The notes beneath the pieces were generated by a model, which saw only the letters and a program-made list of their open reading frames with translations, did no database searches and was not told the DNA's origin. The position numbers were made by a program, and so were the translations under genes. Positions 5,761 to 53,835 of a stretch of DNA of 62,535 nt are shown piece by piece. The DNA comes from an uncultured Eubacteriales bacterium (GTDB taxonomy: Bacteria > Bacillota > Clostridia > Christensenellales > UBA1242), in the NCBI GenBank assembly GCA_902788085.1, contig CADAJB010000007.1, positions 1-62,535 of the forward strand. The letters run 5' to 3'. Numbering within the stretch: the first letter of the stretch is position 1; each line of letters starts with the position of its first letter.

Positions 5761-8017
5761 TTAACAACTTTTCTGCTTTTTCGTTTTGTTGAATTAAAAA
5801 CAACTTTAATGCACTATATCTTGTGGCGGTATAGTCGTTGTTTACCATAAGTTTTAGGTGAAAATATTGCCCCACTAGCACCACCATTTTTTTAGCCCGT
5901 GTTACACCAGTATAAAGTAAATTTCGGGTTAAGATGCTGCTTGCACCGCCAATAACGGGCATAATAACAACATCAAACTCGCTACCCTGCGACTTATGTA
6001 TAGTTATGGCATAACTTAGCGATAGTTGACCTAAGTCTGTTTTTAAATATGTGGCTATGCGCCCGTCTTCAAAGGTTACTTCAACAGCACCCGCTTCGGT
6101 TACATCAGATATAAAACCTATATCACCATTAAATACTGCTTCTCCATATTCTACCCTGCCACCGTCAAAACGCTTCCATTCGAGGTTATAGTTGTTTTGG
6201 GTTTGCATAACTTTATCGCCCTTTCTAAATATAACATCACCTAGTATAACTTCGGGCTGATTAGGTTTTTTAGGGTTTATAATTTTTTGTATTTGGTTGT
6301 TTATGTTATCCACGCCACAAACACCCGCTTTAAGTGGTGCTAAAACTTGTATTTTTTGTGGCTCGATATTTAAAAACCTTGGTATGCGCACCGATTGCAT
6401 ATCTAAAATTCGGCGCAAAATCTCATCGGAATTAGAACATTTTTCAAAAAAGAAATCGTGGCTTGTATTATCTATTTTTGGCATCTCACCATTGTTTATG
6501 GCGTGCGCATTGTAAATGATTAAACTTTTATCTGCCTGCCTATATATTTTTGTAAGCGAACTAACAGGAATGCTACCCGAAGATATAATATCGGCAAGCA
6601 CATTACCCGCCCCCACACTAGGAAGTTGGTTTTTATCACCCACTAAAATTAGACGCGTTGTTGGTTTTAAGGCACTAACAAGGTTGTACATTAACTGCAC
6701 ATCAACCATTGAAACTTCATCTACAATTACCACATCACTAGGCAAAGGGTTACGCTCGTTATAAATAAAGCGTTCGTGGTTAGTTTCCATTCTGCCGTGT
6801 CCAAAATCTAGCATTAGCGCCCTATGAATTGTGCTAGCATCGGCTTCGCAACTTTCGCTCATTCGTTTGGCTGCCCTACCAGTTGGGGCTAGCAGAGTAA
6901 CAACTTGCTTGTGGTTTTTTAGTATATTTAAAATACACTTAATAATTGTTGTTTTACCAGTACCTGGTCCACCTGTTATAACAGATACCCCATTGTTTAT
7001 AGCGTTTATAACTGCATTCTTTTGGTCTTGGTGCAACTCTACATTATTTATTTGCTGAAAGTGTTGTATTTCGTCTTCTAGGTCTAGCATTGGCAATAAG
7101 TTTGCCGACATCATTAATAACTTATTTGCTATGTGTTGCTCTAAAAGATAGTAGTGTAAAAGCATAACACAATCCACATCTTCTACCTTCATTTCTTTTA
7201 TCAAGCCTTCGAAAGTTAGTTCCTTTAAAACCTGACTTAGTTGTTCTTGGTAGTCGTCAAAGTTTAAATCTAATAGTTTAGATAAATTTTGTATTAACTC
7301 TTCTTTTGGCAAATAAGTGTTTCCGCTTTTTTCGCTTGTTTCGTTTAAAGCATAAACAAGCCCTGCCCTAATACGAAAAGTGCTATCTTTTTGTATGCCC
7401 AAACTTACAGCAATTTTATCTGCCGATTTAAACCCAACGCCGCGAATGTCTTCTACAAGCTTATAAGGGTTTGTTTGCAATATGTTTTTTGTATCGTCGC
7501 CGTAGATATTAAATATTTTAACAGCCATATTAACAGAAATGTTATACTCTTGCAAAAACATAACAACATCTTGCATACGCCTAAGGTTTAAAAAAGCACT
7601 GTTAATTTCGGCTGCTTTTTTTGCACTAACCCCCGAAATTGATGTTAGTTTTAGCGGGTTAAACTCTATAACATCTAAAGTATCTGTGCCAAACTTATCT
7701 ACTATTTTTTTTGCGGTTGCTGGCCCTACACCTGCAATTAAACCACTAGATAAATATTTTTCTATTGCTTCGCGAGAGTTGGGTTGTTCTATTTCAAAAC
7801 TCTCTACATTAAACTGCTCGCCCCACTTACTGTTGGTTATAAAATGCCCTTGTGCTAATATTGTTTGCCCTTCAAACAAAGAAGGAATTTTGCCCACTAA
7901 TGTAATCTTTTCGCCATTGCTTTCAATTTTGGCAACAGTATAGCCGTTGTCTTTGTTTTGAAAGATGATACTAACAACATTACCTTTAATGACCATAATT
8001 CCCTCTTTTTTATGCAT
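5747..8017 (-). CDS. recD2: SF1B ATP-dependent RecD-like DNA helicase (RecD2/YrrC type)
   Basis: 756-aa ORF with Walker A (ITGGPGTGKTT), motif VIVDEVSMVD, LVGDKNQLPSVGAG and C-terminal AITIHKSQGSE. An alternative start at M8 (7996) has RBS AGAGGGA. Confidence 0.85.
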   Translation of the reverse strand: MHKKEGIMVIKGNVVSIIFQNKDNGYTVAKIESNGEKITLVGKIPSLFEGQTILAQGHFITNSKWGEQFNVESFEIEQPNSREAIEKYLSSGLIAGVGPATAKKIVDKFGTDTLDVIEFNPLKLTSISGVSAKKAAEINSAFLNLRRMQDVVMFLQEYNISVNMAVKIFNIYGDDTKNILQTNPYKLVEDIRGVGFKSADKIAVSLGIQKDSTFRIRAGLVYALNETSEKSGNTYLPKEELIQNLSKLLDLNFDDYQEQLSQVLKELTFEGLIKEMKVEDVDCVMLLHYYLLEQHIANKLLMMSANLLPMLDLEDEIQHFQQINNVELHQDQKNAVINAINNGVSVITGGPGTGKTTIIKCILNILKNHKQVVTLLAPTGRAAKRMSESCEADASTIHRALMLDFGHGRMETNHERFIYNERNPLPSDVVIVDEVSMVDVQLMYNLVSALKPTTRLILVGDKNQLPSVGAGNVLADIISSGSIPVSSLTKIYRQADKSLIIYNAHAINNGEMPKIDNTSHDFFFEKCSNSDEILRRILDMQSVRIPRFLNIEPQKIQVLAPLKAGVCGVDNINNQIQKIINPKKPNQPEVILGDVIFRKGDKVMQTQNNYNLEWKRFDGGRVEYGEAVFNGDIGFISDVTEAGAVEVTFEDGRIATYLKTDLGQLSLSYAITIHKSQGSEFDVVIMPVIGGASSILTRNLLYTGVTRAKKMVVLVGQYFHLKLMVNNDYTATRYSALKLFLIQQNEKAEKLLNEQN

Positions 8018-8599: not shown

Positions 8600-11011
8600 C
8601 TATTCTCCTTTTGCTTTTTTAGCTTCAATTTCGGCTAAATCGCGCTCTACAAACTTTTGTAAACTTGTTTTTTCTTTATTTGGTGGAAGCAACGCAAAAT
8701 CAAACACTTCTTGAATGTTTGTTACTAATTTTATATCAAGTTTTTCGCGAACTTCTTTTGGTAAATCGTCTAGGTTGTGTTCGTTTTGTTTTGGTAGAAT
8801 AACAGTTGTCATTCCAGCACGCGCAGCACCCATAAGTTTATCACGCACACCACCTATACTTAAAACTCTGCCGTGCAACGATACCTCACCTGTCATTGCA
8901 AGTTTTTGTTTTACTGGGCGGTTTGTTAACGCACTTGCTATTGCTAGTGCTGTTGCAACACCTGCACTTGGCCCTTCTACACCATAAGGAAGGTGTGGAT
9001 AGTGAATATGAAGCGTAGTTTTAGAGAAAGTGTAAGGGTTTATACCCAATTTATCTGCCATACTTTGAACAAGTGTATATGCTGTTTTTGCAGACTCTTG
9101 CGATATATTGCCCATTTGCCCTGTTAGCACCATTTTTTCGGAACCATATACAGCATTAACTTCGATAAGTAGTGTGCTTCCGCCTGTATAATCTACGCCT
9201 AAGCCTACAACTTCGCCGACATTTCCGCCATCAAAGAAAGTATCTTTTTCGGCATAGTCGTTGCCTAAATATGCCTTTAAGTTTGTTAGGCTTACATCTT
9301 TAAACTTTTTGCCGTCAACCTTACGCATTGCATACTTTCGGCAGATTGACGCAATTTGACGCTCTAAGCCCCTAACACCTGCTTCCATAGTATAATCTTC
9401 TATAATTTTTAACAATAACTCGTCGGTAAAAGGCACAGTATTTTGTGCAAGACCGGCTAATTTTTCTTGTTTAACTATTAGGTGGCGTTTGGCTATTTCC
9501 ACCTTTTCTAGTGGTGTATAGCCACTAACTTCTATAACTTCCATACGGTCTAGTAGTGGGCGCGGAATAGTTTGTAAAGTGTTGGCCGTTAGTATAAACA
9601 TAACCTTAGATAAATCGTAAGGTATTTCTAAGAAATTATCTTTAAAGTGGTCGTTTTGCGCTGGGTCTAAAACTTCTAATAGTGCACTTGCAGGGTCGCC
9701 GTGCACATCTTGTGTTAGTTTATCAATTTCGTCTAGCAAGAACACTGGGTTTATAGTGCCGGCTTGCTTCATACCTTCTATTATTCGCCCTGGCATTGCA
9801 CCCACATAAGTGCGGCGGTGCCCACGAATAACACTTTCGTCGCTTACACCACCCAAAGATACTTGAACAAACTTACGCCCCATTGCTTTTGCAATAGATT
9901 GTGCTACCGAAGTTTTACCAACACCAGGTGCACCAACCAAACATATAATTTGGGCGTTTACATTTTTTGTAAGAGATATAACCGATAAAGTTTCTAAAAT
10001 TCGATCTTTAACCTTATCTAGTGCATAGTGGTCGTCATCTAAAATTTTGCGCGCCTGCACAATATCTAACTTGTCTTCGGTTTTTGTGTGCCAAGGAAGT
10101 GCTAATACTGTATCTAAAAAGTTGCGAATATACCCAAGTTCTGGCGAACCAAACGGAAGTTTTGCAAGCCTGTTTACTTCTTTTAATACTTTTTCTTCGC
10201 TTTCTTTTGGCATATTAAGCGCTTTAACTTTTTTGCGGTATTCTTCTATTTCGTCAACTTCGCCATTAAGTTCCTGATTAATAACATTAAGTTGCTCACG
10301 CAAGTAAATTTCTTTTTGGGTTTTAGATAAATTTTCGTTTACTTTGTCGTCAATAGACTTGCGCACTGCTAAAAGTTCTTTCAAACCTTTTATTAAGCCT
10401 TCTTCTAGTTCTAAACGCTCTTCTACATTTTGCGTAGCAAGCAAGGTTTGTTGGGTTTTTATGTCTTCTTTGGCAAGCAAATGAATAAGTGCATCCGAAA
10501 ATTTTGCAGGGCTAGATTCTAGGTTTAACAACTGGTTTTCTAGCATAGGTGGCAAAAAGCGGGTTTTGTAGTTTATTTTTTTAAGTTCATCTTTTAGTAT
10601 ATTCATCTTTTGATATGCAAAAACACTGTTTGCGTTTACTTCTGGCAACTCCTGTGCATATAAAACAAATTGCGGTTGCAAACTTTCTATTTTGTTTATA
10701 AGCACCCTACTTTGCCCAAGCAACAAAACTTTTGTATGACCTTCTTCTTCTACAAATTTTTTTATTTCACACAAACAACCTATTTCAAAAAAGTCGTTTA
10801 TAGTTGGCTCGGCAATTCCGTCTTTGCTAGAAACCAAAACAACCTTTTGCCCCTTTTCGTTGGCAATCTTTATATTTGTTAGTTCTTCGGGGTTTACTAT
10901 ATCACAAGTTATATTTACATTTGGCACTGCAACTATGTTGGTTAAAAAAACACCAATGTACTGCTTACTTGCTTCAAATTTTTGTTTATTTTGCTCTGTC
11001 ATATTTTCCAT
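8600..11011 (-). CDS. lon: ATP-dependent Lon protease (LonA)
   Basis: 803-aa ORF with an N-terminal LON domain, AAA+ Walker A GAPGVGKTS, and protease motif PSAGVATALAIASAL with the catalytic Ser. Confidence 0.95.
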   Translation of the reverse strand: MENMTEQNKQKFEASKQYIGVFLTNIVAVPNVNITCDIVNPEELTNIKIANEKGQKVVLVSSKDGIAEPTINDFFEIGCLCEIKKFVEEEGHTKVLLLGQSRVLINKIESLQPQFVLYAQELPEVNANSVFAYQKMNILKDELKKINYKTRFLPPMLENQLLNLESSPAKFSDALIHLLAKEDIKTQQTLLATQNVEERLELEEGLIKGLKELLAVRKSIDDKVNENLSKTQKEIYLREQLNVINQELNGEVDEIEEYRKKVKALNMPKESEEKVLKEVNRLAKLPFGSPELGYIRNFLDTVLALPWHTKTEDKLDIVQARKILDDDHYALDKVKDRILETLSVISLTKNVNAQIICLVGAPGVGKTSVAQSIAKAMGRKFVQVSLGGVSDESVIRGHRRTYVGAMPGRIIEGMKQAGTINPVFLLDEIDKLTQDVHGDPASALLEVLDPAQNDHFKDNFLEIPYDLSKVMFILTANTLQTIPRPLLDRMEVIEVSGYTPLEKVEIAKRHLIVKQEKLAGLAQNTVPFTDELLLKIIEDYTMEAGVRGLERQIASICRKYAMRKVDGKKFKDVSLTNLKAYLGNDYAEKDTFFDGGNVGEVVGLGVDYTGGSTLLIEVNAVYGSEKMVLTGQMGNISQESAKTAYTLVQSMADKLGINPYTFSKTTLHIHYPHLPYGVEGPSAGVATALAIASALTNRPVKQKLAMTGEVSLHGRVLSIGGVRDKLMGAARAGMTTVILPKQNEHNLDDLPKEVREKLDIKLVTNIQEVFDFALLPPNKEKTSLQKFVERDLAEIEAKKAKGE

Positions 11012-11085: not shown

Positions 11086-11117
11086 ATACAAAAAGGCTTA
11101 AAAAAAGCCCTTTTTTA
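11086..11117 (-). terminator. rho-independent terminator, probably the original glmS terminator now displaced by the islet
   Basis: The minus strand reads AAAAAGGGCTT-TTTTT-AAGCCTTTTT followed by a T-rich run. It lies just outside the left 17-bp direct repeat. Confidence 0.5.
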
Positions 11118-11134
11118 GAACATTTATATAAAAT

Positions 11135-11151
11135 AAAACAAAATACTACTC
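11135..11151. repeat. left 17-bp direct repeat (AAAACAAAATACTACTC) bounding the recombinase islet
   Basis: Exact copy of 12594..12610, which overlaps the glmS stop codon. Confidence 0.85.
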
Positions 11152-11174
11152 AGCATAAGATAACTTAACGAATC

Positions 11175-11441
11175 TCAGTCTTCGTCTTCTGTGAGTTTAT
11201 CAAACAATGCGACTAAATCACGGCTAGTCTTCTCTATAATGCTTATCTTTCGCAAATAATTAATAGCAATCTCCAAAGCAGCCGCATCTTCTTTCTGTCT
11301 ATTATAGTAGGAAGATATTTTTTCTTCTGACCAATCCTGCATAAATGGTGGTAAATATCTCCTTTCTGTTGGTCTTGTTGCTTTAAATTTAATCTTTCTT
11401 AATATCTCAACAACATCTTCTAAATTGTTTACTTCTCTCAT
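11175..11441 (-). CDS. hypothetical small acidic protein of the islet
   Basis: Start trimmed to MREVNNLEDVV (ATG 11441, RBS ACGGAG), 1 nt after the stop of the upstream ORF. I recognise no family. Confidence 0.5.
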   Translation of the reverse strand: MREVNNLEDVVEILRKIKFKATRPTERRYLPPFMQDWSEEKISSYYNRQKEDAAALEIAINYLRKISIIEKTSRDLVALFDKLTEDED

Positions 11442-11442
11442 A

Positions 11443-11670
11443 TTATATATCTCCGTTTTTTCTCTTTCTGTGTTTTCCTCTACCTTTCGGCTTATACACC
11501 CCTTCTGCAAGTGCCTTATTAACAATAATTTTTATTGAATTTTGCCATAGGTTATACTTTGCCATTATTTCCTTGTATGTCATATCTTTTTCAAAATAGT
11601 CAGCCAAAAGTTCATTCTCTTGCTCTTTGTTTAATTTTTTATTTGCAGGATTGTAACCTTTTTTTTTCAT
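11443..11670 (-). CDS. small helix-turn-helix protein of the islet
   Basis: 75-aa ORF. YKEIMAKYNLWQNSIKIIVNKA looks like an HTH, and the tail is basic. The start ATG sits immediately before an A9 tract shared with the upstream ORF. Confidence 0.55.
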   Translation of the reverse strand: MKKKGYNPANKKLNKEQENELLADYFEKDMTYKEIMAKYNLWQNSIKIIVNKALAEGVYKPKGRGKHRKRKNGDI

Positions 11671-11890
11671 ACGGTTTCCAGTTCCCTTGCCCTTTATGTA
11701 TAGGTTTTCTACCTACAAATGAAGGCACTCTTGCTTTTATTTCCCCACTACGCAAGTATGGTTTTACAATATTGCTAATTGTTGTAGGTGTTAAACCTGT
11801 TGTTTCACCAATATATTTAAGTTTAACCCCTTGCTTATAAAGAGTTAAAATTTGTTGTTTTGTTTCTTCTGTAATAATTTTTCTTGCCAT
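11639..11890 (-). CDS. small helix-turn-helix protein of the islet (resolvase/transposase-type HTH)
   Basis: 83-aa ORF. ILTLYKQGVKLKYIGETTGLTPTTISNIV resembles an HTH_23/HTH_7-like motif. It overlaps the next ORF by 32 nt across the A9 tract. Confidence 0.6.
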   Translation of the reverse strand: MARKIITEETKQQILTLYKQGVKLKYIGETTGLTPTTISNIVKPYLRSGEIKARVPSFVGRKPIHKGQGNWKPYEKKRLQSCK

Positions 11891-11903
11891 AAAACACCTT
11901 CTC

Positions 11904-12500
11904 TTAACATAGTGCGACTTCTCTTGCTACGACCGTTCTACTTATGCCCATTTTTTTACTAATTTGATTTTGGCTAACACCACTAACATATAACGCTTTT
12001 ATGTTTGCAATTTGCTCTTCTGTAATAGTTCTTCTTCTACCAAGTTGAACACCTTGTTCTTTTAATGCTTTCAATTTGTTTTTTGTATCATAACTAATAA
12101 GTCTTTTTTGGAACTCGTCAGCCAAAAAGAATTGAGATAAAGCCATCCATTCGTACGGGTTGAGTTTTTTACCACCTTGTAATGTTGTGCCATTGCTCAA
12201 GAAGTTAATATTAACCCCATATTCAAGGGTAATTGTATCAACAATATCCAAACAATCAATGTAGTTACAACCAAATCTTGAACTTTCTGTAAACACGACA
12301 GTGTCCCCTGGTCTTAAAACCGATAACATTTCACGGAAAGCCTTTCTCTCATCACCACGGACACCACCTGAAATATGTTCTTCAAAAACTCTTTCTATAT
12401 CTAGCCCACTGTGTTCAATAAGGTATTTTTGCCTTTCAAAGTCTTGTGATTTTTTCGCTTTTTTTGCACTAACACGAAAATACGCATAAATTTTACTCAT
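11904..12500 (-). CDS. serine recombinase (resolvase/invertase family, C-terminal HTH)
   Basis: N-terminal YAYFRVSAKK (catalytic Ser), HISGG, PGDTVVFTESSRFGCN, GVQLGRRRT, and C-terminal HTH ISKKMGISRTVVAREV. Same layout as Hin/Gin/Tn3 resolvase. Confidence 0.9.
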   Translation of the reverse strand: MSKIYAYFRVSAKKAKKSQDFERQKYLIEHSGLDIERVFEEHISGGVRGDERKAFREMLSVLRPGDTVVFTESSRFGCNYIDCLDIVDTITLEYGVNINFLSNGTTLQGGKKLNPYEWMALSQFFLADEFQKRLISYDTKNKLKALKEQGVQLGRRRTITEEQIANIKALYVSGVSQNQISKKMGISRTVVAREVALC

Positions 12501-12554
12501 AATATCTCCTTTACAAAGCCATCAAATGTATGGACTTACATGGTTTATATAGTT

Positions 12555-12583
12555 ATTATATCATAATAACATAAAAAACACAA
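12555..12583 (-). promoter_or_regulatory. putative sigma-A promoter for the recombinase
   Basis: The minus strand reads TTGTGT, 17 nt, TGATATAAT (extended -10), about 55 nt upstream of the ATG. Confidence 0.45.
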
Positions 12584-12593
12584 GCAAAAATTA

Positions 12594-12610
12594 AAAACAA
12601 AATACTACTC
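12594..12610. repeat. right 17-bp direct repeat (AAAACAAAATACTACTC), overlapping the glmS stop
   Basis: Exact copy of 11135..11151. It contains the glmS codons GAG-TAG on the minus strand. Confidence 0.85.
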
Positions 12611-14401
12611 TACTGTAACTGACTTTGCAAGGTTTCGGGGTTTATCTACATTTAAGTTTTTTTGTTTAGCAAGAAGCAATGCTAATTGTTGCAAAACCTT
12701 TGTGGCGACAAATGGCGAAAACACATCTTTTTTGTTGTTTATGTAAATACAAAAATCCACAACAATATCAACCTTTTGCGAAGTAATTAAAATTATATGT
12801 GCGCCACGGCTTTGCATTTCTATAATATTGCTAATCACTTTTTGGGTTAACTCTTTTTGGGTTAGCAACACTATTGCATAAGTTGTGTTATTAAAAAGCG
12901 CCAAACTGCCATGTTTTAACTCGCCTAATGGCATAGCCTCGCAATGAATATAACTAACTTCTTTTATCTTTAAAGCACCTTCTTGTGCAGTTATATAGTC
13001 TATATCCCGCCCTAATATATACAAACTTTGTAGGTCTTTTATGGCGTTTACAACTGGTTGAAGTTTTAAATAATAATCTTCTTTTAAGCATAAAGCAACA
13101 TCTAACAAGTCTTTATAACTATAATCTATATTTTTGCCTAAAACTTTACTAATCCACTCGGTTAACAAAAAAGCCGAACAAAGTTGCGCTATATACGCTT
13201 TTGTGCTTGCTACCGAGTTTTCGGTGCCTGCGCTTGTAAACAAGCAATAATCCACCATATTAGATATGCGTGATGTATAAACATTAGTTATGCCTAAGCA
13301 AAAAGCCCCACTTTGTTTGGCTAGTTCTAAACACCCCAAAGTATCTGCTGTTTCGCCACTTTGTGATATAAAAATGCAAAAACTATGCTTATCTAAAAAG
13401 TTGTTTTTATACCTAAATTCGCTAGCATAATCTACAACGCAAAATATGCCACAATACTTTTGCAATAAATACCCCAAAACTCTGCCCGCGTGCAAGGCCG
13501 TTCCGCAAGCACAAATAAAAAAGGTTTTGGCGCTTTCTATCGCATTTTTTGGTATGTATGATAAAGCATTGTTATATAGTATATTTTGCGCTGTATTTAA
13601 TAGTGCACTAGGGCTTTGGTTAATCTCTTTTTCCATAAACGAAGAAAAACCATTTATATCTGTATCTAAACCATTGTTTTTTACATCTAACTTTTGTAGT
13701 ATAACTGGTTCTAAATTAAAGTTATAGCATTTAAAACCATCTTTAAAAACAAGCCCTAAGGTATTGTCTTTTAGTTTATAAACTTGGGCTTTTTGTGGCA
13801 ACCCCACTATATCACTTGCAACCATAACCCCTGTATTTGTTTTGCCTATAACAAGTGGGCTAAACTTTGTTGCTATAAACAAACAATTTAAGTTGTCTAT
13901 TAATATACACAACGCAAACGAGCCTTTTAGCATTGGCAAAACCTTATTTAAAGCGTTTAACACATTTTTTATAGTGTAGGCTTTGCCTTTTAATTTTTGC
14001 ATAATAAGATTTGGTATAACTTCGGTATCTGTATCCGAAACTAAGTTTATGCCATCTAAATACAAAGTTTGTTTTAATTGCAAAAAATTTTCGATAATTC
14101 CGTTATGTACAACTGCAATTTTTTTATTTTCACTTATTTGTGGGTGCGCGTTTTTTGTGCAAACTTTTCCGTGAGTTGCCCAGCGTGTATGCCCTATCAT
14201 AACACTAGCCGGGGTTGCGTTTTTTTGTAGTGCTTGTTTTAAGTTATCAACCCCACCTGTTACTTTAACCGTGTATAAACCTTTGTTTAACAAATACCCT
14301 ACGCCTGCGCTATCATACCCGCGATATTCTAGTTTTTTTAAGCAATCTAGCACAATATTTTGGGCAGGTTTTTTGCCTATATAGCCTGCAATTCCGCACA
14401 T
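12605..14401 (-). CDS. glmS: glutamine--fructose-6-phosphate aminotransferase
   Basis: Starts MCGIAGYIG (Ntn Cys1) and has two SIS domains. C-terminus is NLAKSVTVE. Confidence 0.95.
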   Translation of the reverse strand: MCGIAGYIGKKPAQNIVLDCLKKLEYRGYDSAGVGYLLNKGLYTVKVTGGVDNLKQALQKNATPASVMIGHTRWATHGKVCTKNAHPQISENKKIAVVHNGIIENFLQLKQTLYLDGINLVSDTDTEVIPNLIMQKLKGKAYTIKNVLNALNKVLPMLKGSFALCILIDNLNCLFIATKFSPLVIGKTNTGVMVASDIVGLPQKAQVYKLKDNTLGLVFKDGFKCYNFNLEPVILQKLDVKNNGLDTDINGFSSFMEKEINQSPSALLNTAQNILYNNALSYIPKNAIESAKTFFICACGTALHAGRVLGYLLQKYCGIFCVVDYASEFRYKNNFLDKHSFCIFISQSGETADTLGCLELAKQSGAFCLGITNVYTSRISNMVDYCLFTSAGTENSVASTKAYIAQLCSAFLLTEWISKVLGKNIDYSYKDLLDVALCLKEDYYLKLQPVVNAIKDLQSLYILGRDIDYITAQEGALKIKEVSYIHCEAMPLGELKHGSLALFNNTTYAIVLLTQKELTQKVISNIIEMQSRGAHIILITSQKVDIVVDFCIYINNKKDVFSPFVATKVLQQLALLLAKQKNLNVDKPRNLAKSVTVE

Positions 14402-15147
14402 TATTTTTTACCCCCAAAACTTAAATAGGCGCTAACCAAACGATTATAAATTTTGCCTTTATTTAAAAACTTTATGCCACTAACACTTGCCTGCATTTTA
14501 AAGGTTTTTATAAGGTTTTTTAAGCGTTTGCTTACGCCAAAATTTCCGTCTATCACTTCAACTTTTAACAGCCTTTTTATATAATTTTTAAAAAACACAT
14601 AATGTGTGCATCCAAGCACAACGCAGTCAATTTTGTTTTTACACGGCAATAACAATTTAGTTAAATATTCTTGCACCACTTTTTTTGTGTATAAATTGTT
14701 TTCAATTAAATAAGCAAGGTCTTGGGGGCATAAACAAAAAACATTAAAATACCTTTTAGTTAGGTTTGTAATTTTACTGTTTTTTATAGTATTAGATGTA
14801 GCAAGCAACAATATATTTTTGTGCTTTTTTACAGCAGGCACAAGTGCGGGCTCGGTGCCAATAAAGATAATGGACTTGTATTTGTTTCTTAAATAACTTA
14901 CTACAAGAGCCGTTGCCGTATTGCACGCTAAAACCACAATTTTGGGGTTGTATTGATTAATTAAATTTTTTATTGTATTTTTTATGCTATACACAAGTTT
15001 AGTTTTTGACTTGTTGCCATAAGGCATATTATCTTCATCGGCATAATATAAATACGGCTGATTAGGCACAAGTTTGTAACACCTATACAGCGTAGAAACG
15101 CCACCTATACCGCTATCAAAAAATAAAATTGGTTGGTTGTTAATCAT
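14401..15147 (-). CDS. murI: glutamate racemase
   Basis: FFDSGIGGVS near the N-terminus, plus LACNTA and VLGCTHY catalytic Cys motifs. Its stop overlaps the glmS start (TAATG). Confidence 0.9.
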   Translation of the reverse strand: MINNQPILFFDSGIGGVSTLYRCYKLVPNQPYLYYADEDNMPYGNKSKTKLVYSIKNTIKNLINQYNPKIVVLACNTATALVVSYLRNKYKSIIFIGTEPALVPAVKKHKNILLLATSNTIKNSKITNLTKRYFNVFCLCPQDLAYLIENNLYTKKVVQEYLTKLLLPCKNKIDCVVLGCTHYVFFKNYIKRLLKVEVIDGNFGVSKRLKNLIKTFKMQASVSGIKFLNKGKIYNRLVSAYLSFGGKK

Positions 15148-53442: not shown

Positions 53443-53835
53443 TGGTGGAGATGATGGGAGTTGAACCCATGTCCAAAAAACTATCAAACCAACATCTACA
53501 TATTTAGTTGCTTTATAATCTTGCATAAGGCTAACCAAGCAACAGGTGCAATATGCAAAGTTTAATTTAATACGGCACAAAACCTTAAACACTTTTTGTG
53601 CGAGTAACCTAATGGGTTGATACCATATTGTATGCCTTAGGTACTATCCAACACACAACTGGCAGATTTAATAAAACTTAAATCAAGCAATTACGCATAA
53701 GCGTAAACTGTGTTAACACTTGCGTAATTAGAAACGTTTTTGTTTGCGTTTACATTTAATTTTCGTTGGTAATGCAGACGAACCTGCAATATGCATTTGG
53801 TTTGACCCATTTTCTGTCAAAGCCGTAACACCCCC
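53443..53835 (-). ncRNA. ssrA: tmRNA (SsrA)
   Basis: The minus strand starts GGGGGTGTTACGGCTTTGACAG and ends GGACATGGGTTCAACTCCCATCATCTCCACCA (tRNA-like acceptor/T-arm with CCA). It has an internal tag ORF and lies 6 nt downstream of smpB. Confidence 0.9.

What the first reader, a model, noticed from the sequence alone, without database searches (positions are those of the whole stretch)
11086..12610. Minimal serine-recombinase islet integrated exactly at the glmS stop codon, with 17-bp direct repeats and a displaced terminator
AAAACAAAATACTACTC occurs at 11135..11151 and again at 12594..12610. The right copy contains the last sense codon and TAG stop of glmS. Just outside the left copy lies a terminator hairpin (11086..11117) that would follow glmS directly if the 1,459 bp between the repeats were removed. 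The intervening DNA encodes a Hin/resolvase-type serine recombinase with its own promoter, two small HTH ORFs and a small acidic ORF, and nothing else. The 3' end of glmS is the classic Tn7 attachment site, but Tn7 uses a different, much larger machinery. An element this small using a small serine recombinase to occupy the glmS terminator, with an unusually long 17-bp repeat for that family, does not match any element I can name. It may be a minimal integrative element or the remnant of a larger island or phage.
Basis: partly seen in the sequence, partly recalled or inferred. Interest (0 to 1): 0.65.

Follow-up and report, generated by a model that had tools for sequence, protein, structure and literature searches.

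The report
Tiny phage-derived integrative element at glmS
A 1.46-kb piece of phage-derived DNA carrying a small resolvase-type recombinase sits exactly on the stop codon of the housekeeping gene glmS in an uncultured ruminant-gut bacterium. Metagenome data show both the empty site and a head-to-tail joined form, so it is a real, very small site-specific mobile element that is now partly decayed.

Summary
An exact 17-bp direct repeat (11135-11151 and 12594-12610) brackets 1,442 bp inserted between glmS and its native terminator, and the right copy holds the last sense codon and the TAG stop of glmS.

- **Empty site.** A conspecific strain (97.9% nt identity) has the predicted empty site: glmS, one 17-mer, then the terminator.
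- **Junction unitigs.** One sheep-gut run holds an empty-site unitig next to filled sites. One other run holds a head-to-tail (circle or tandem) junction through a single 17-mer.
- **Second species.** A second host species carries the same islet at the same site. Host genes are saturated at synonymous sites (dS 0.8-2.0), but the islet ends are 97-99% identical (dS 0.04-0.13). The islet therefore moved horizontally and site-specifically.
- **Origin.** The cargo is a conserved block of IMG/VR-classified phage-like elements of about 42-57 kb. It comprises the recombinase, a bipartite HTH protein and a small acidic protein, and it keeps recombining with those elements.
The "two HTH ORFs" are one gene split by a T9 tract. 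The islet recombinase has Cys where Tn3 resolvase has the catalytic R71, while all phage homologues keep Arg. Some strains carry frameshifted recombinase genes.

Which enzyme does the recombination, the islet's own or a phage's in trans, is inferred and not shown. The closest precedent is the phiRSM small-serine-recombinase Int/attP unit. I class this as a new variant of a known kind.

The parts
12594..12610 (.). glmS-proximal copy of the 17-bp repeat (attL core); holds the last sense codon GAG and the TAG stop of glmS
11135..11151 (.). distal copy of the 17-bp repeat (attR core), directly followed by native host DNA
   Evidence: the empty site L108 joins this flank to glmS through one 17-mer
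11152..12593 (-). body of the inserted element (1,442 bp; 1,459 bp with one core)
   Evidence: absent from the conspecific empty site; 90.6% identical to phage-like locus L012 over 12585..11179
12555..12583 (-). promoter-like sequence of the recombinase operon (TTGTGT, 17 nt, TGnTATAAT)
   Evidence: read directly; conserved in position with TTGCAA/TATAAT-type promoters upstream of phage homologues; not flagged by the consensus scan
12516..12537 (-). conserved dyad in the 5' leader (AAGTCCATACATTTGATGGCTT); CCAT..ATGG changes to CCAC..GTGG in distant phage homologues
   Evidence: function unknown (operator or RNA hairpin)
11904..12500 (-). 198-aa small serine recombinase: resolvase/invertase-type catalytic domain plus C-terminal HTH
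   Evidence: Pfam PF00239 E 1e-19 and HTH_7; PHROG DNA invertase E 8e-39; aligned to gamma-delta and Tn3 resolvase
12267..12269 (-). codon 78, TGT (Cys), at the position of catalytic R71 of Tn3/gamma-delta resolvase; CGT (Arg) in the phage copies
   Evidence: R71 mutants of Tn3 resolvase lose recombination (PMC2794168)
11639..11890 (-). N-terminal part (first HTH) of the bipartite HTH gene; runs out of frame after the T9 tract
11659..11667 (.). T9 (A9 on the coding strand) tract that splits the HTH gene; T8 restores a 148-aa ORF
   Evidence: T8 alleles in runs X12, X13 and X25, probably the phage copy
11443..11670 (-). C-terminal part (second HTH and basic tail) of the bipartite HTH gene
11175..11441 (-). 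88-aa acidic, helical protein of unknown function; always follows the HTH gene in islets and phage-like elements
   Evidence: no family match
11152..11174 (-). 23-bp islet-specific arm between the acidic ORF's stop and the distal core; identical in both host species and absent from the phage loci
11090..11114 (-). native intrinsic terminator of glmS, displaced by the insertion; host DNA and not part of the element
   Evidence: follows glmS directly in the empty site; conserved in the outgroup L109
12605..14401 (-). glmS (598 aa), left intact by the insertion
8600..11011 (-). lon protease gene, the ancestral downstream neighbour of glmS

Best explanation
The islet is an IS-sized (1,459 bp) site-specific integrative element that derives from the recombinase module of a ~42-57-kb phage-like element. 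As a circle it carries one copy of the 17-bp core GAGTAGTATTTTGTTTT. That core is identical to the last sense codon, the stop codon and the next 11 nt of the host's glmS.

Conservative recombination between the two cores inserts the element between glmS and its terminator. This leaves the gene intact and produces the two 17-bp repeats (attL and attR). The reverse reaction restores the empty site and gives a circle.

Shown here:
- the insertion and its exact boundaries;
- the empty site;
- a head-to-tail junction through one core;
- recent horizontal arrival at the same site in two host species;
- continuing homologous exchange of the interior with related phages.

Inferred: the catalyst is a resolvase/invertase-type small serine recombinase of this family, helped or regulated by the bipartite HTH protein and the small acidic protein. 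The islet's own recombinase has Cys at the position of catalytic Arg71 of Tn3 resolvase, so the active enzyme may be supplied in trans by a co-resident phage relative that keeps Arg.

In this window the element is partly decayed. The HTH gene is frameshifted and the recombinase is probably weakened.
For: - **Repeat.** The 17-bp repeat is exact and non-random.
- **Empty site, assembled.** L108 is 97.9% nt identical to the window over 2,360 bp (glmS dS 0.052). It reads glmS, one 17-mer, then the terminator.
- **Empty site, unitig.** Run X5 has a 43-nt unitig, 11122-11151 joined to 12611-12623, at depth 2 beside filled sites at depth 7-7.6.
- **Head-to-tail junction.** Run X17 has a 43-nt unitig, 12581-12610 joined to 11152-11164, at depth 2. 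Junction depths there are 3.7-3.8 and islet depth is 4.4-5.9.
- **Outgroups.** The outgroup with conserved synteny has glmS directly followed by lon, with the same terminator and lon promoter and no 17-mer; a more distant MAG also has glmS followed directly by lon.
- **Second species.** It has glmS 74% aa identical, with dS of 1.62 (glmS), 0.83 (lon) and 2.02 (murI). It carries the islet at the same site with the same repeats. The islet ends are 97-99% identical. The recombinase catalytic domain has dS 0.128 and the acidic ORF 0.04.
- **Sharp boundary.** High identity begins inside the proximal core.
- **Core mismatch.** In the second species attL has C and attR has A at core position 8. A crossover to the right of position 8 between slightly different attB and attP would give this. 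A plain target duplication would not.
- **Only candidate enzyme.** The only recombination gene between the repeats is the serine recombinase.
- **Precedent.** A resolvase-like small serine recombinase integrates phage phiRSM at a 13-nt core at the 3' end of a host gene (PMC3816273).
- **Selection.** Recombinase dN/dS is 0.09-0.14, so the protein is under purifying selection.
Against: - The islet recombinase has Cys78 where Tn3 resolvase has R71. R71A and R71K abolish recombination and cut cleavage at least 1,000-fold (PMC2794168). All 17 non-islet (phage-like or short-contig) homologues aligned keep Arg, while the window and the sister-species islet (P0001), the only two islet sequences aligned, have Cys. 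None of the islet alleles covering this codon in the read-laid runs differs there.
- Two further near-invariant positions are changed only in the islets (T12A, N138D).
- No dyad symmetry surrounds the core in attB or attP, which is unusual for a serine-recombinase crossover site.
- Each junction form was seen in only one of about 21 runs, at depth 2. A circle cannot be told from a tandem dimer.
- No empty-site unitig was seen in X17.
- The HTH gene is frameshifted here. The recombinase is a pseudogene in runs X6, X7, X10 and X11.
- No phage copy examined carries the 17-mer or the islet-specific arms, so the origin of the attP is not explained.
- No enzyme activity was or could be tested.
Confidence: 0.62

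Rival explanations
1. The islet is an immobile scar. A fragment of phage DNA, or a prophage later deleted down to 1.4 kb, was inserted once by illegitimate recombination that duplicated 17 bp. Empty sites are strains that never had it or lost it by slippage or homologous recombination between the repeats. The head-to-tail junction is an unequal-crossover tandem duplication. The second species got the whole locus by homologous replacement.
For: The recombinase lacks a catalytic Arg. The HTH gene is frameshifted and the recombinase is a pseudogene in several strains. No dyad symmetry surrounds the core. The cargo is plainly phage-derived. Junction forms are rare and shallow. Identity between the species continues for ~75 bp beyond the distal repeat.
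Against: - The ~75 bp beyond the distal repeat is host regulatory DNA that is also conserved in the outgroup.
- On the glmS side, high identity starts inside the 17-mer, with ordinary divergence in the last 60 bp of glmS. This leaves no flanking homology tract for homologous replacement.
- Islet dS (0.04-0.13) is 6-50 times lower than that of the flanking host genes.
- A head-to-tail joint on about a third of element ends in X17 is far more than rare unequal crossover between 17-bp repeats would sustain.
- Recombinase dN/dS between the two islets is 0.14, which argues against a dead gene.
Confidence: 0.2
2. The islet is a non-autonomous hitchhiker, a special case of the best explanation. Its own recombinase is catalytically dead and serves only in DNA binding or regulation. 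All integration and excision is done in trans by the Arg-bearing recombinase of the related phage when it infects. The islet would then be a minimal att-flanked parasite of that phage's recombination system.
For: Cys78 is present in both sequenced islets and in every run where the codon is covered, while every phage copy has Arg. The phage recombinase is 92% identical and its C-terminal DNA-binding domain is almost identical to the window's. Phage of the L012 type co-occurs with the host in runs X3, X10 and X12. The mosaic interior shows that islet and phage meet in the same cell. The Cys78 allele still reached a second species.
Against: No junction forms were seen in the three runs where phage flanks were detected. 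The phage loci contain neither the 17-mer nor the islet arms, so the phage enzyme's natural site is unknown. Purifying selection on a dead enzyme needs another function.
Confidence: 0.3
3. The islet is a domesticated phage module kept for the host's benefit. Examples would be a dominant-negative recombinase with DNA-binding proteins that interferes with related phages, or a regulator of the glmS-lon region. Its mobility would be incidental or past.
For: Recombinase dN/dS is 0.1-0.14 despite loss of a catalytic Arg. The acidic ORF is nearly invariant. The islet is present in most runs holding this species. It lies co-oriented downstream of glmS and uses the glmS terminator.
Against: There is no match to any known defence family. 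The HTH gene is broken in the window species and the recombinase in several strains. Empty-site strains exist. Together these look like a dispensable, decaying element.
Confidence: 0.1
4. Another enzyme moves it. A tyrosine recombinase, Xer-type system or transposase encoded elsewhere in the host or in a phage recognises the 17-mer, and the resolvase gene is only cargo.
For: A long identical core that rebuilds the 3' end of the target gene is more typical of tyrosine integrases (general knowledge). There is no dyad symmetry of the serine-recombinase type. The islet recombinase is doubtful as a catalyst.
Against: No such gene lies in or next to the islet. No Tn7 genes and no 5-bp duplication are present. 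The element's ends lie directly next to the recombinase promoter, as is usual for int-attP units. A small serine recombinase with a 13-nt core has precedent.
Confidence: 0.06

Closest known systems
phiRSM-type Int/attP unit of Ralstonia filamentous phages (resolvase-like small serine recombinase acting as integrase)
   Same: It is a recombinase of the resolvase/DNA-invertase type, not a large serine integrase. It is associated with integration and excision at a short identical core (13 nt) that matches the 3' end of a conserved host gene (PMC3816273). Ralstonia phages are among the weak tblastn matches of the islet recombinase.
   Different: Here the target is the stop codon of a protein gene (glmS) and not a tRNA gene, and the core is 17 nt. 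The element is 1.46 kb with no phage functions at all. The similarity is only family-level: every phage-database match, Ralstonia phages included, is below 60% identity, and the best listed matches are E. coli phage invertases at ~31%. Two accessory genes (bipartite HTH, acidic protein) always accompany it. The islet copy lacks a catalytic Arg.
Tn7 and Tn7-like transposons at attTn7 (downstream end of glmS)
   Same: They use the 3' end of glmS as a safe, conserved landing site that leaves the gene intact.
   Different: From general knowledge, Tn7 needs TnsABC+D, inserts about 25 bp downstream of the stop with a 5-bp duplication, and is many kb long. None of those genes or features is present here. 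This insertion point is the stop codon itself, with a 17-bp repeat.
Large serine integrases of prophages and ICEs (phiC31, Bxb1, SPbeta SprA, TnpX, CcrAB)
   Same: They use serine-recombinase chemistry for integration into or next to genes, with short common cores and separate directionality factors.
   Different: Those enzymes are 450-700 aa, with recombinase, zinc-ribbon and coiled-coil domains. This one is 198 aa, with only a catalytic domain and an HTH_7-type domain.
IS607-family insertion sequences
   Same: They are IS-sized elements whose only mobility gene is a small serine recombinase.
   Different: From general knowledge, IS607 TnpA has the opposite domain order (N-terminal MerR-like HTH, C-terminal catalytic domain), little target specificity and no flanking repeats. 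The NCBIfam IS607 model scores only 15.9 bits against a cut-off of 110.
Resolvases and DNA invertases (gamma-delta/Tn3 resolvase, Hin/Gin, Mpi)
   Same: Same fold and domain order. The counterparts of Y6, R8, S10, R45 and R68 are conserved. The best curated hit is the Mpi invertase family.
   Different: The hit is far below family cut-offs (70.9 against 272 bits). The R71 counterpart is Cys in the islets. No res site or invertible segment is present, and the observed products are insertion and excision.
CIMEs and other att-flanked decayed integrative elements mobilised by a related element's integrase
   Same: It is a short att-flanked remnant of a larger mobile element that may depend on the recombinase of an intact relative.
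   Different: From general knowledge, CIMEs lack a recombinase gene and descend from ICEs with tyrosine integrases. This element keeps a recombinase gene under purifying selection and descends from a phage-like element.

Membership tests
Small serine recombinase (resolvase/invertase) | N-terminal resolvase catalytic domain (PF00239) with the nucleophilic Ser in an R-x-S motif | tested here: met
   PF00239 E 9.7e-20 over residues 4-151; YFRVS with S11 aligned to S10 of gamma-delta resolvase
Small serine recombinase (resolvase/invertase) | C-terminal HTH DNA-binding domain, total length ~180-210 aa | tested here: met
   HTH_7 at residues 154-189, 198 aa
Small serine recombinase (resolvase/invertase) | Full set of catalytic residues (Y6, R8, S10, D36, R68, R71 in Tn3 numbering) | tested here: not met
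   The R71 counterpart is Cys78 (TGT) in both islets and Arg (CGT) in all phage homologues. The D36 counterpart is Glu across the whole family. The other residues are present. The importance of R71 comes from PMC2794168.
Site-specific integrative element | Flanked by direct repeats (attL/attR) that share a core with the target | tested here: met
   Exact 17-bp repeat; also present with 1-2 mismatches in the second species
Site-specific integrative element | Empty site (attB) with a single core copy in related genomes | tested here: met
   L108 assembly and a run X5 unitig
Site-specific integrative element | Excised circular form with a single core copy (attP) | tested here: inconclusive
   A head-to-tail junction unitig was found in run X17 at depth 2. 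A circle and a tandem dimer give the same 43-nt junction. It was not seen in about 20 other runs.
Site-specific integrative element | Independent insertions at the same site in different lineages | tested here: met
   The same site is occupied in a species with glmS dS 1.62, while islet dS is 0.04-0.13. The boundary of high identity lies inside the core.
Site-specific integrative element | The encoded recombinase catalyses the attP x attB and attL x attR reactions | not testable with these tools
   Needs an in vivo or in vitro recombination assay
Tn7-like transposon | TnsA/TnsB/TnsC with TnsD or an equivalent target selector | tested here: not met
   Only four ORFs are present, none with transposase or AAA+ regulator domains
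Tn7-like transposon | Insertion ~25 bp downstream of the glmS stop with a 5-bp target duplication | tested here: not met
   The insertion is at the stop codon with a 17-bp repeat
Large serine integrase element | Recombinase over 400 aa with recombinase (PF07508), zinc-ribbon and coiled-coil domains | tested here: not met
   198 aa with only PF00239 and an HTH. XisF model scores 25 bits against a cut-off of 375.
IS607 family | Serine transposase with an N-terminal MerR-like HTH and a C-terminal catalytic domain; no flanking repeats | tested here: not met
   The domain order is the reverse. IS607 model scores 15.9 bits against a cut-off of 110. A 17-bp repeat is present.
Prophage remnant | Sequence homologous to a phage genome block | tested here: met
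   90.6% nt identity to L012 over 1.4 kb. The same gene order occurs in ~42-57-kb elements, six of them in IMG/VR, which carry phage-type replication genes.
Prophage remnant | Other phage genes or phage att arms adjoining the remnant | tested here: not met
   Nothing but the three-gene block lies between the repeats. The islet arms are absent from the phage loci examined.

The most novel reading that the evidence does not exclude
The element would be the smallest kind of integrative 'satellite'. It is a 1.46-kb att-flanked copy of a phage's own recombination module, and its recombinase has lost a catalytic arginine. It is nevertheless kept under purifying selection and spreads between host species at the glmS stop codon. 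It would do so by borrowing the active recombinase of the related phage, possibly while interfering with that phage through mixed, inactive recombinase complexes. This would be a new way of life for a mobile element: a parasite, or decoy, of one phage's site-specific recombination system.
Probability: 0.2. Interest if true: 0.8.

Novelty: new variant of a known kind. Interest (0 to 1): 0.62.

Why it matters
Integration by resolvase-type small serine recombinases is barely documented; the phiRSM filamentous phages are the only case I found. Here the same kind of enzyme is tied to a stand-alone, IS-sized element with natural evidence for an empty site, a joined form and interspecies spread.

If the recombinase family proves to be the catalyst, it would offer a very compact system for site-specific integration: an enzyme of about 200 aa, a 17-bp core, and two small accessory proteins of unknown role.

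It also shows a phage recombination module escaping into a chromosome and then continuing to trade sequence with its parent phages. It further raises a testable question: how can an element whose recombinase lacks a catalytic arginine still move?

The practical stakes are modest. The host is an uncultured ruminant-gut Clostridia-like bacterium, and the element carries no cargo.

Tried and rejected
- **Metagenome scan with a glmS alignment.** It returned only distant glmS genes (45% identity or less), so that scan was wasted for finding empty sites. Exact-protein look-ups found them instead.
- **Viral scan with the window recombinase.** Nothing was found. The family was reached only through a more distant member and an alignment.
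- **GTDB genomes.** There is no close glmS. Only two recombinase relatives turned up, both on phage-like contigs and none next to glmS.
- **Search for an attP in phages.** The 17-mer and both islet arms are absent from all phage loci held, allowing 3-4 mismatches. Six exact 17-mer matches in IMG/VR are chance hits with no related genes.
- **Dyad symmetry.** None was found around the core of attB or attP.
- **Tn7 reading.** Rejected, because no Tns genes are present and the geometry is wrong.
- **Ancestral gene order.** Rejected on the empty sites, the outgroup synteny and the dS contrast.
- **Terminator as part of the element.** Rejected, because it is conserved in the outgroup and follows glmS in the empty site.
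- **Defence-system reading.** No PADLOC match.
- **Structure of the accessory proteins.** The HTH protein models as two three-helix domains joined by a disordered basic linker, with only weak likeness to Pax and Tc3 bipartite domains (E 0.01 or above). The acidic protein models as three helices at low confidence. Neither gave a function.
- **Raw reads.** The raw-read run X21 held no reads of this locus.
- **RNA evidence.** The only run returned for the RNA query (X25, kind unrecorded) held just parts of the islet and showed no junction, so expression is untested.
- **T8 alleles.** The T8 (intact HTH) alleles in X12, X13 and X25 carry phage-type SNPs, so they probably belong to the phage. I do not count them as intact islets.
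Full report
**What is in the sequence**

The 17-mer AAAACAAAATACTACTC occurs exactly twice in the window, at 11135-11151 and 12594-12610. There are no other copies with up to two mismatches, and 0 of 100 dinucleotide shuffles gave two matches. The flanking bases differ, so the repeat is exactly 17 bp.

All genes here lie on the minus strand. glmS (12605..14401, 598 aa, SIS and GATase domains) ends with GAG TAG inside the right copy. lon (8600..11011) lies beyond the left copy. A terminator-like hairpin with a T-run lies at 11114..11090, just outside the left copy.

The 1,442 bp between the copies encode:
- a 198-aa resolvase/invertase-type serine recombinase (11904..12500; PF00239 E 1e-19 plus HTH_7; PHROG 'DNA invertase' E 8e-39);
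- two overlapping HTH ORFs;
- an 88-aa acidic ORF (11175..11441).

G+C content is 32.7%, against 34.3% for the window, so composition does not set the islet apart.

**The two HTH ORFs are one gene**

In every relative the recombinase is followed by a single 144-155-aa protein with two HTH domains. In the window, a T9 tract at 11659-11667 (A9 on the coding strand) puts the second half out of frame. Removing one T yields a 148-aa ORF collinear with the relatives.

AlphaFold models the intact protein as two three-helix HTH domains (residues 8-46 and 84-125) joined by a disordered basic linker (pLDDT 73). Foldseek gives only weak likeness to bipartite DNA-binding domains such as Pax and Tc3 (E 0.01 or above). 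The acidic protein has no family match and a low-confidence helical model.

**It is an insertion, and the empty site exists**

Exact-protein look-ups found the same locus, base for base, in three further assemblies.

A contig from another sample, L108, carries a glmS that is 98% identical in protein. It is 97.9% identical in DNA over 2,360 bp, with glmS dS 0.052. It reads ...GTTACAGTAGAGTAGTATTTTGTTTT|ATTTTATATAAATGTTCTAAAAAAGGGCTTTTTTTAAG. That is glmS, one 17-mer, and then directly the sequence that lies outside the left repeat in the window.

The next relatives, at 55% glmS identity, have the full YdjC-S20-Gpr-MurI-GlmS-Lon-EngB-RecD2 synteny. In them glmS is followed by lon after 131 bp, with a recognisably conserved terminator and lon promoter but no 17-mer. 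A 46% relative shows the same arrangement. The terminator is therefore native host DNA displaced by the insertion. Its conservation explains why identity between species continues for ~75 bp beyond the distal repeat.

**Both recombination products are visible in public runs**

The locus is held by about 20 ruminant-gut (and one mouse-gut) metagenome runs, kept as k=31 unitigs.

- In run X5 a 43-nt unitig at depth 2 joins 11122-11151 to TACTGTAACTGAC (12611-12623). This is the empty-site joint, beside filled junctions at depth 6.9-7.6.
- In run X17 a 43-nt unitig at depth 2 joins 12581-12610 to AGCATAAGATAAC (11152-11164). It was seen from both ends, as CAAGCAAAAATTA + 17-mer + AGCATAAGATAAC. 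This is the head-to-tail joint of the element through a single core. It is what a circle or a tandem dimer would give. Chromosomal junction depths there are 3.7-3.8 and islet depths 4.4-5.9.

Thirteen consecutive novel 31-mers, each seen at least twice, cannot come from sequencing error. Both joints are exactly the products of recombination within the 17-mer. About 18 other runs showed neither joint. At these depths, rare forms would not survive unitig building.

**The same islet at the same site in a second species, and much younger than its hosts**

A recombinase 91% identical (P0001) lies between glmS and lon in a second lineage (L015-L019). It has an intact 144-aa HTH gene and the acidic ORF. 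The flanking repeats are GAGTAGTCTTTTGTTTT at the proximal end and G/AAGTAGTATTTTGTTTT at the distal end.

The hosts are different species. GlmS is 74% identical in protein, and dS is 1.62 for glmS, 0.83 for lon and 2.02 for murI. The islets, in contrast, are 97-99% identical at both ends. dS is 0.128 for the recombinase catalytic domain and 0.04 for the acidic ORF.

On the glmS side the last 60 bp of the gene show ordinary divergence, and near-identity starts inside the 17-mer. Vertical inheritance of an ancestral insertion is therefore excluded. Replacement by homologous recombination lacks a homology tract on the glmS side. The simplest reading is independent, site-specific arrival.

The single mismatch between the repeats of the second species fits this. 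C in attL and A in attR at position 8 is what a crossover to the right of position 8 between slightly different attB and attP cores would leave. A later point mutation cannot be excluded.

**Where the cargo comes from**

A recombinase 92% identical (P0002) lies on phage-like contigs (L012, 20.5 kb; L013, 52.7 kb). It is followed by the same HTH and acidic genes and a convergent FtsK/SpoIIIE-like gene. It is preceded by small ORFs that include HNH endonucleases, YopX, methyltransferases and a pyrimidine-dimer glycosylase.

Window 12585..11179 matches L012 at 90.6%. The homology runs from the recombinase promoter to the last codons of the acidic ORF and stops 9 bp and 27 bp short of the two repeats.

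More distant homologues (44-78% identity) keep the same block, sometimes with an extra 112-aa ORF, at the end of a replication module with an exonuclease, an ERCC4-type nuclease, an initiator and a DnaB-like helicase. They sit on contigs that repeatedly measure 54-57 kb. Six such contigs of 35-57 kb are in IMG/VR.

The block is thus a core, syntenic part of a family of phage-like elements. I did not see structural genes, so 'phage' rests on the IMG/VR classification and the gene content.

The islet interior is a mosaic:
- Between 12005 and 11806 the window matches phage L012 at 93-97% and the sister islet matches another phage-like contig (L027) at 94-98%; the two islets are only 66-71% alike there.
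- 11805-11706 is unique to the window.
- From 11705 to 11506 the window again follows L012 (87-99%), while the two islets are only 68-74% alike.
- Other runs carry further alleles of 11693-11799.

Phage flanks of the L012 type appear as loose ends in runs X3, X10 and X12. Islet and phage therefore meet and exchange sequence by homologous recombination. The islet-specific ends are never replaced.

**The recombinase**

Aligned with gamma-delta and Tn3 resolvase, the counterparts of Y6, R8, S10, R45 and R68 are present. The counterpart of R71 is Cys78 (TGT) in the window and in the second species' islet. All 17 non-islet (phage-like or short-contig) homologues aligned have Arg, encoded as CGT in the closest ones.

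In Tn3 resolvase, R71A and R71K abolish recombination and lower cleavage about 1,000-fold or more (PMC2794168). Two other near-invariant positions are also changed only in the islets: T12A and N138D. No run that covers the codon shows a different residue at position 78.

Even so, dN/dS is 0.14 between the two islets and 0.08-0.11 against the phage. Because both islets have Cys78, that allele was already present when the element reached the second species.

In runs X6, X7 and X11 the gene carries two compensating indels that create in-frame stops, and in X10 a frameshift. The gene is therefore dispensable to the host.

Neither the att core nor its surroundings show the partial dyad symmetry usual for serine-recombinase sites. 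Upstream of the phage genes, just 5' of the -35 element, lies a conserved palindrome AAAATATTTT. At the corresponding position the islet has GTAGTATTTTG, which is part of the 17-mer. This is a lead on the family's natural site and nothing more.

**How it most likely works**

Shown: the element inserted between glmS and its terminator at a 17-bp sequence that it also carries. It can be absent, with one core left. It can be joined head to tail through one core. It entered two species at the same place.

Inferred: these are conservative site-specific recombination events between a core on a circular element and the chromosomal core. They would be catalysed by a small serine recombinase of this family, with the bipartite HTH protein and the acidic protein as accessory or regulatory factors.

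Because the islet's enzyme lacks a catalytic arginine, two possibilities remain. It may retain low activity, which would favour stable residence. Alternatively, the reaction may be done in trans by the Arg-bearing recombinase of a co-infecting relative. I cannot decide between these.

How the element acquired a core identical to the host's, and how a 1.46-kb DNA travels between species, remain unexplained. Carriage on the related phage after homologous recombination is an obvious candidate.

**Comparison with known systems**

- The closest precedent is the Int/attP unit of Ralstonia phage phiRSM. There a resolvase/invertase-like small serine recombinase mediates integration and excision at a 13-nt core equal to the 3' end of a tRNA-Ser gene (PMC3816273).
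- Tn7 shares only the choice of glmS.
- Large serine integrases share the chemistry but not the architecture.
- IS607 shares the size and enzyme class, but not the domain order, target specificity or repeats.
- No curated recombinase subfamily is matched. The best is the Mpi invertase model at 71 bits against a 272-bit cut-off.

I therefore class this as a new variant of a known kind: a stand-alone, phage-derived mini-element built on a small-serine-recombinase integration module.

**Limits**

- The junction evidence rests on one assembly and two shallow unitigs.
- A circle and a tandem dimer are not distinguished.
- No activity was tested.
- The phage-like relatives are known only in part.

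Noticed in passing
window 11659-11667: A T9 (A9 on the coding strand) tract splits the bipartite HTH gene. It is the only such tract in the islet and one of three runs of 9 or more A/T in the window. An A9 run could allow transcriptional slippage to restore some full-length protein. T8 alleles appear in runs X12, X13 and X25, but with phage-type SNPs.
   Followed up: partly
window 12392 and 12458 (recombinase gene): Strains in runs X6, X7 and X11 lack one base at 12392 and have an extra T after 12458. This gives two in-frame stops near the recombinase N-terminus (called as a 141-aa protein, P0005). Run X10 has only the deletion. The recombinase is thus a pseudogene in several natural strains.
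   Followed up: yes
window 11693-11799: This is a hypervariable segment of the HTH gene. It is unique to the window compared with the sister islet and the phages (57-60% identity). In run X16 it is replaced by a different 93-nt stretch, and the run X15 contig diverges at the same left boundary (11693).
   Followed up: partly
window 12516-12537; L012, L027, L001, L113 upstream of the recombinase: A conserved dyad lies in the recombinase leader just before the ribosome-binding site. CCAT..ATGG in the islets and L012 changes to CCAC..GTGG in distant phage homologues, a compensatory change. It could be an operator or an RNA hairpin.
   Followed up: no
L012 ~5895-5905; L027 and L001 at the equivalent place: A perfect palindrome AAAATATTTT lies just 5' of the -35 element of the recombinase promoter in several phage-like relatives. 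At the same position the islets have GTAGTATTTTG, which is part of the 17-bp core. It is a possible natural recombinase site.
   Followed up: no
window 14398-14404 and upstream of glmS: glmS starts within the end of murI (overlapping stop and start). No glmS ribozyme, or any other Rfam family, is found near it. glmS here is evidently not ribozyme-controlled, unlike in many Firmicutes.
   Followed up: partly
window 53443-53835 (-): A tmRNA gene (136 bits) is the only Rfam match in the window. tmRNA genes are frequent integration sites, but the surroundings were not examined.
   Followed up: no
L015 7478-9905: In one assembly of the sister species, lon is called as two ORFs (210 and 610 aa) in place of the single 805-aa ORF in L016. 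This is a frameshift or an assembly error in that contig.
   Followed up: no
L020, L022, L113 (contigs of 56,690, 56,514 and 56,701 bp) and L021 (130,244 bp): Independent assemblies of the P0013-type phage-like element end at nearly the same coordinates, which suggests defined genome ends. One 130-kb contig begins at about the same point and runs on. It may be a concatemer or an integrated copy, and it was not resolved.
   Followed up: no
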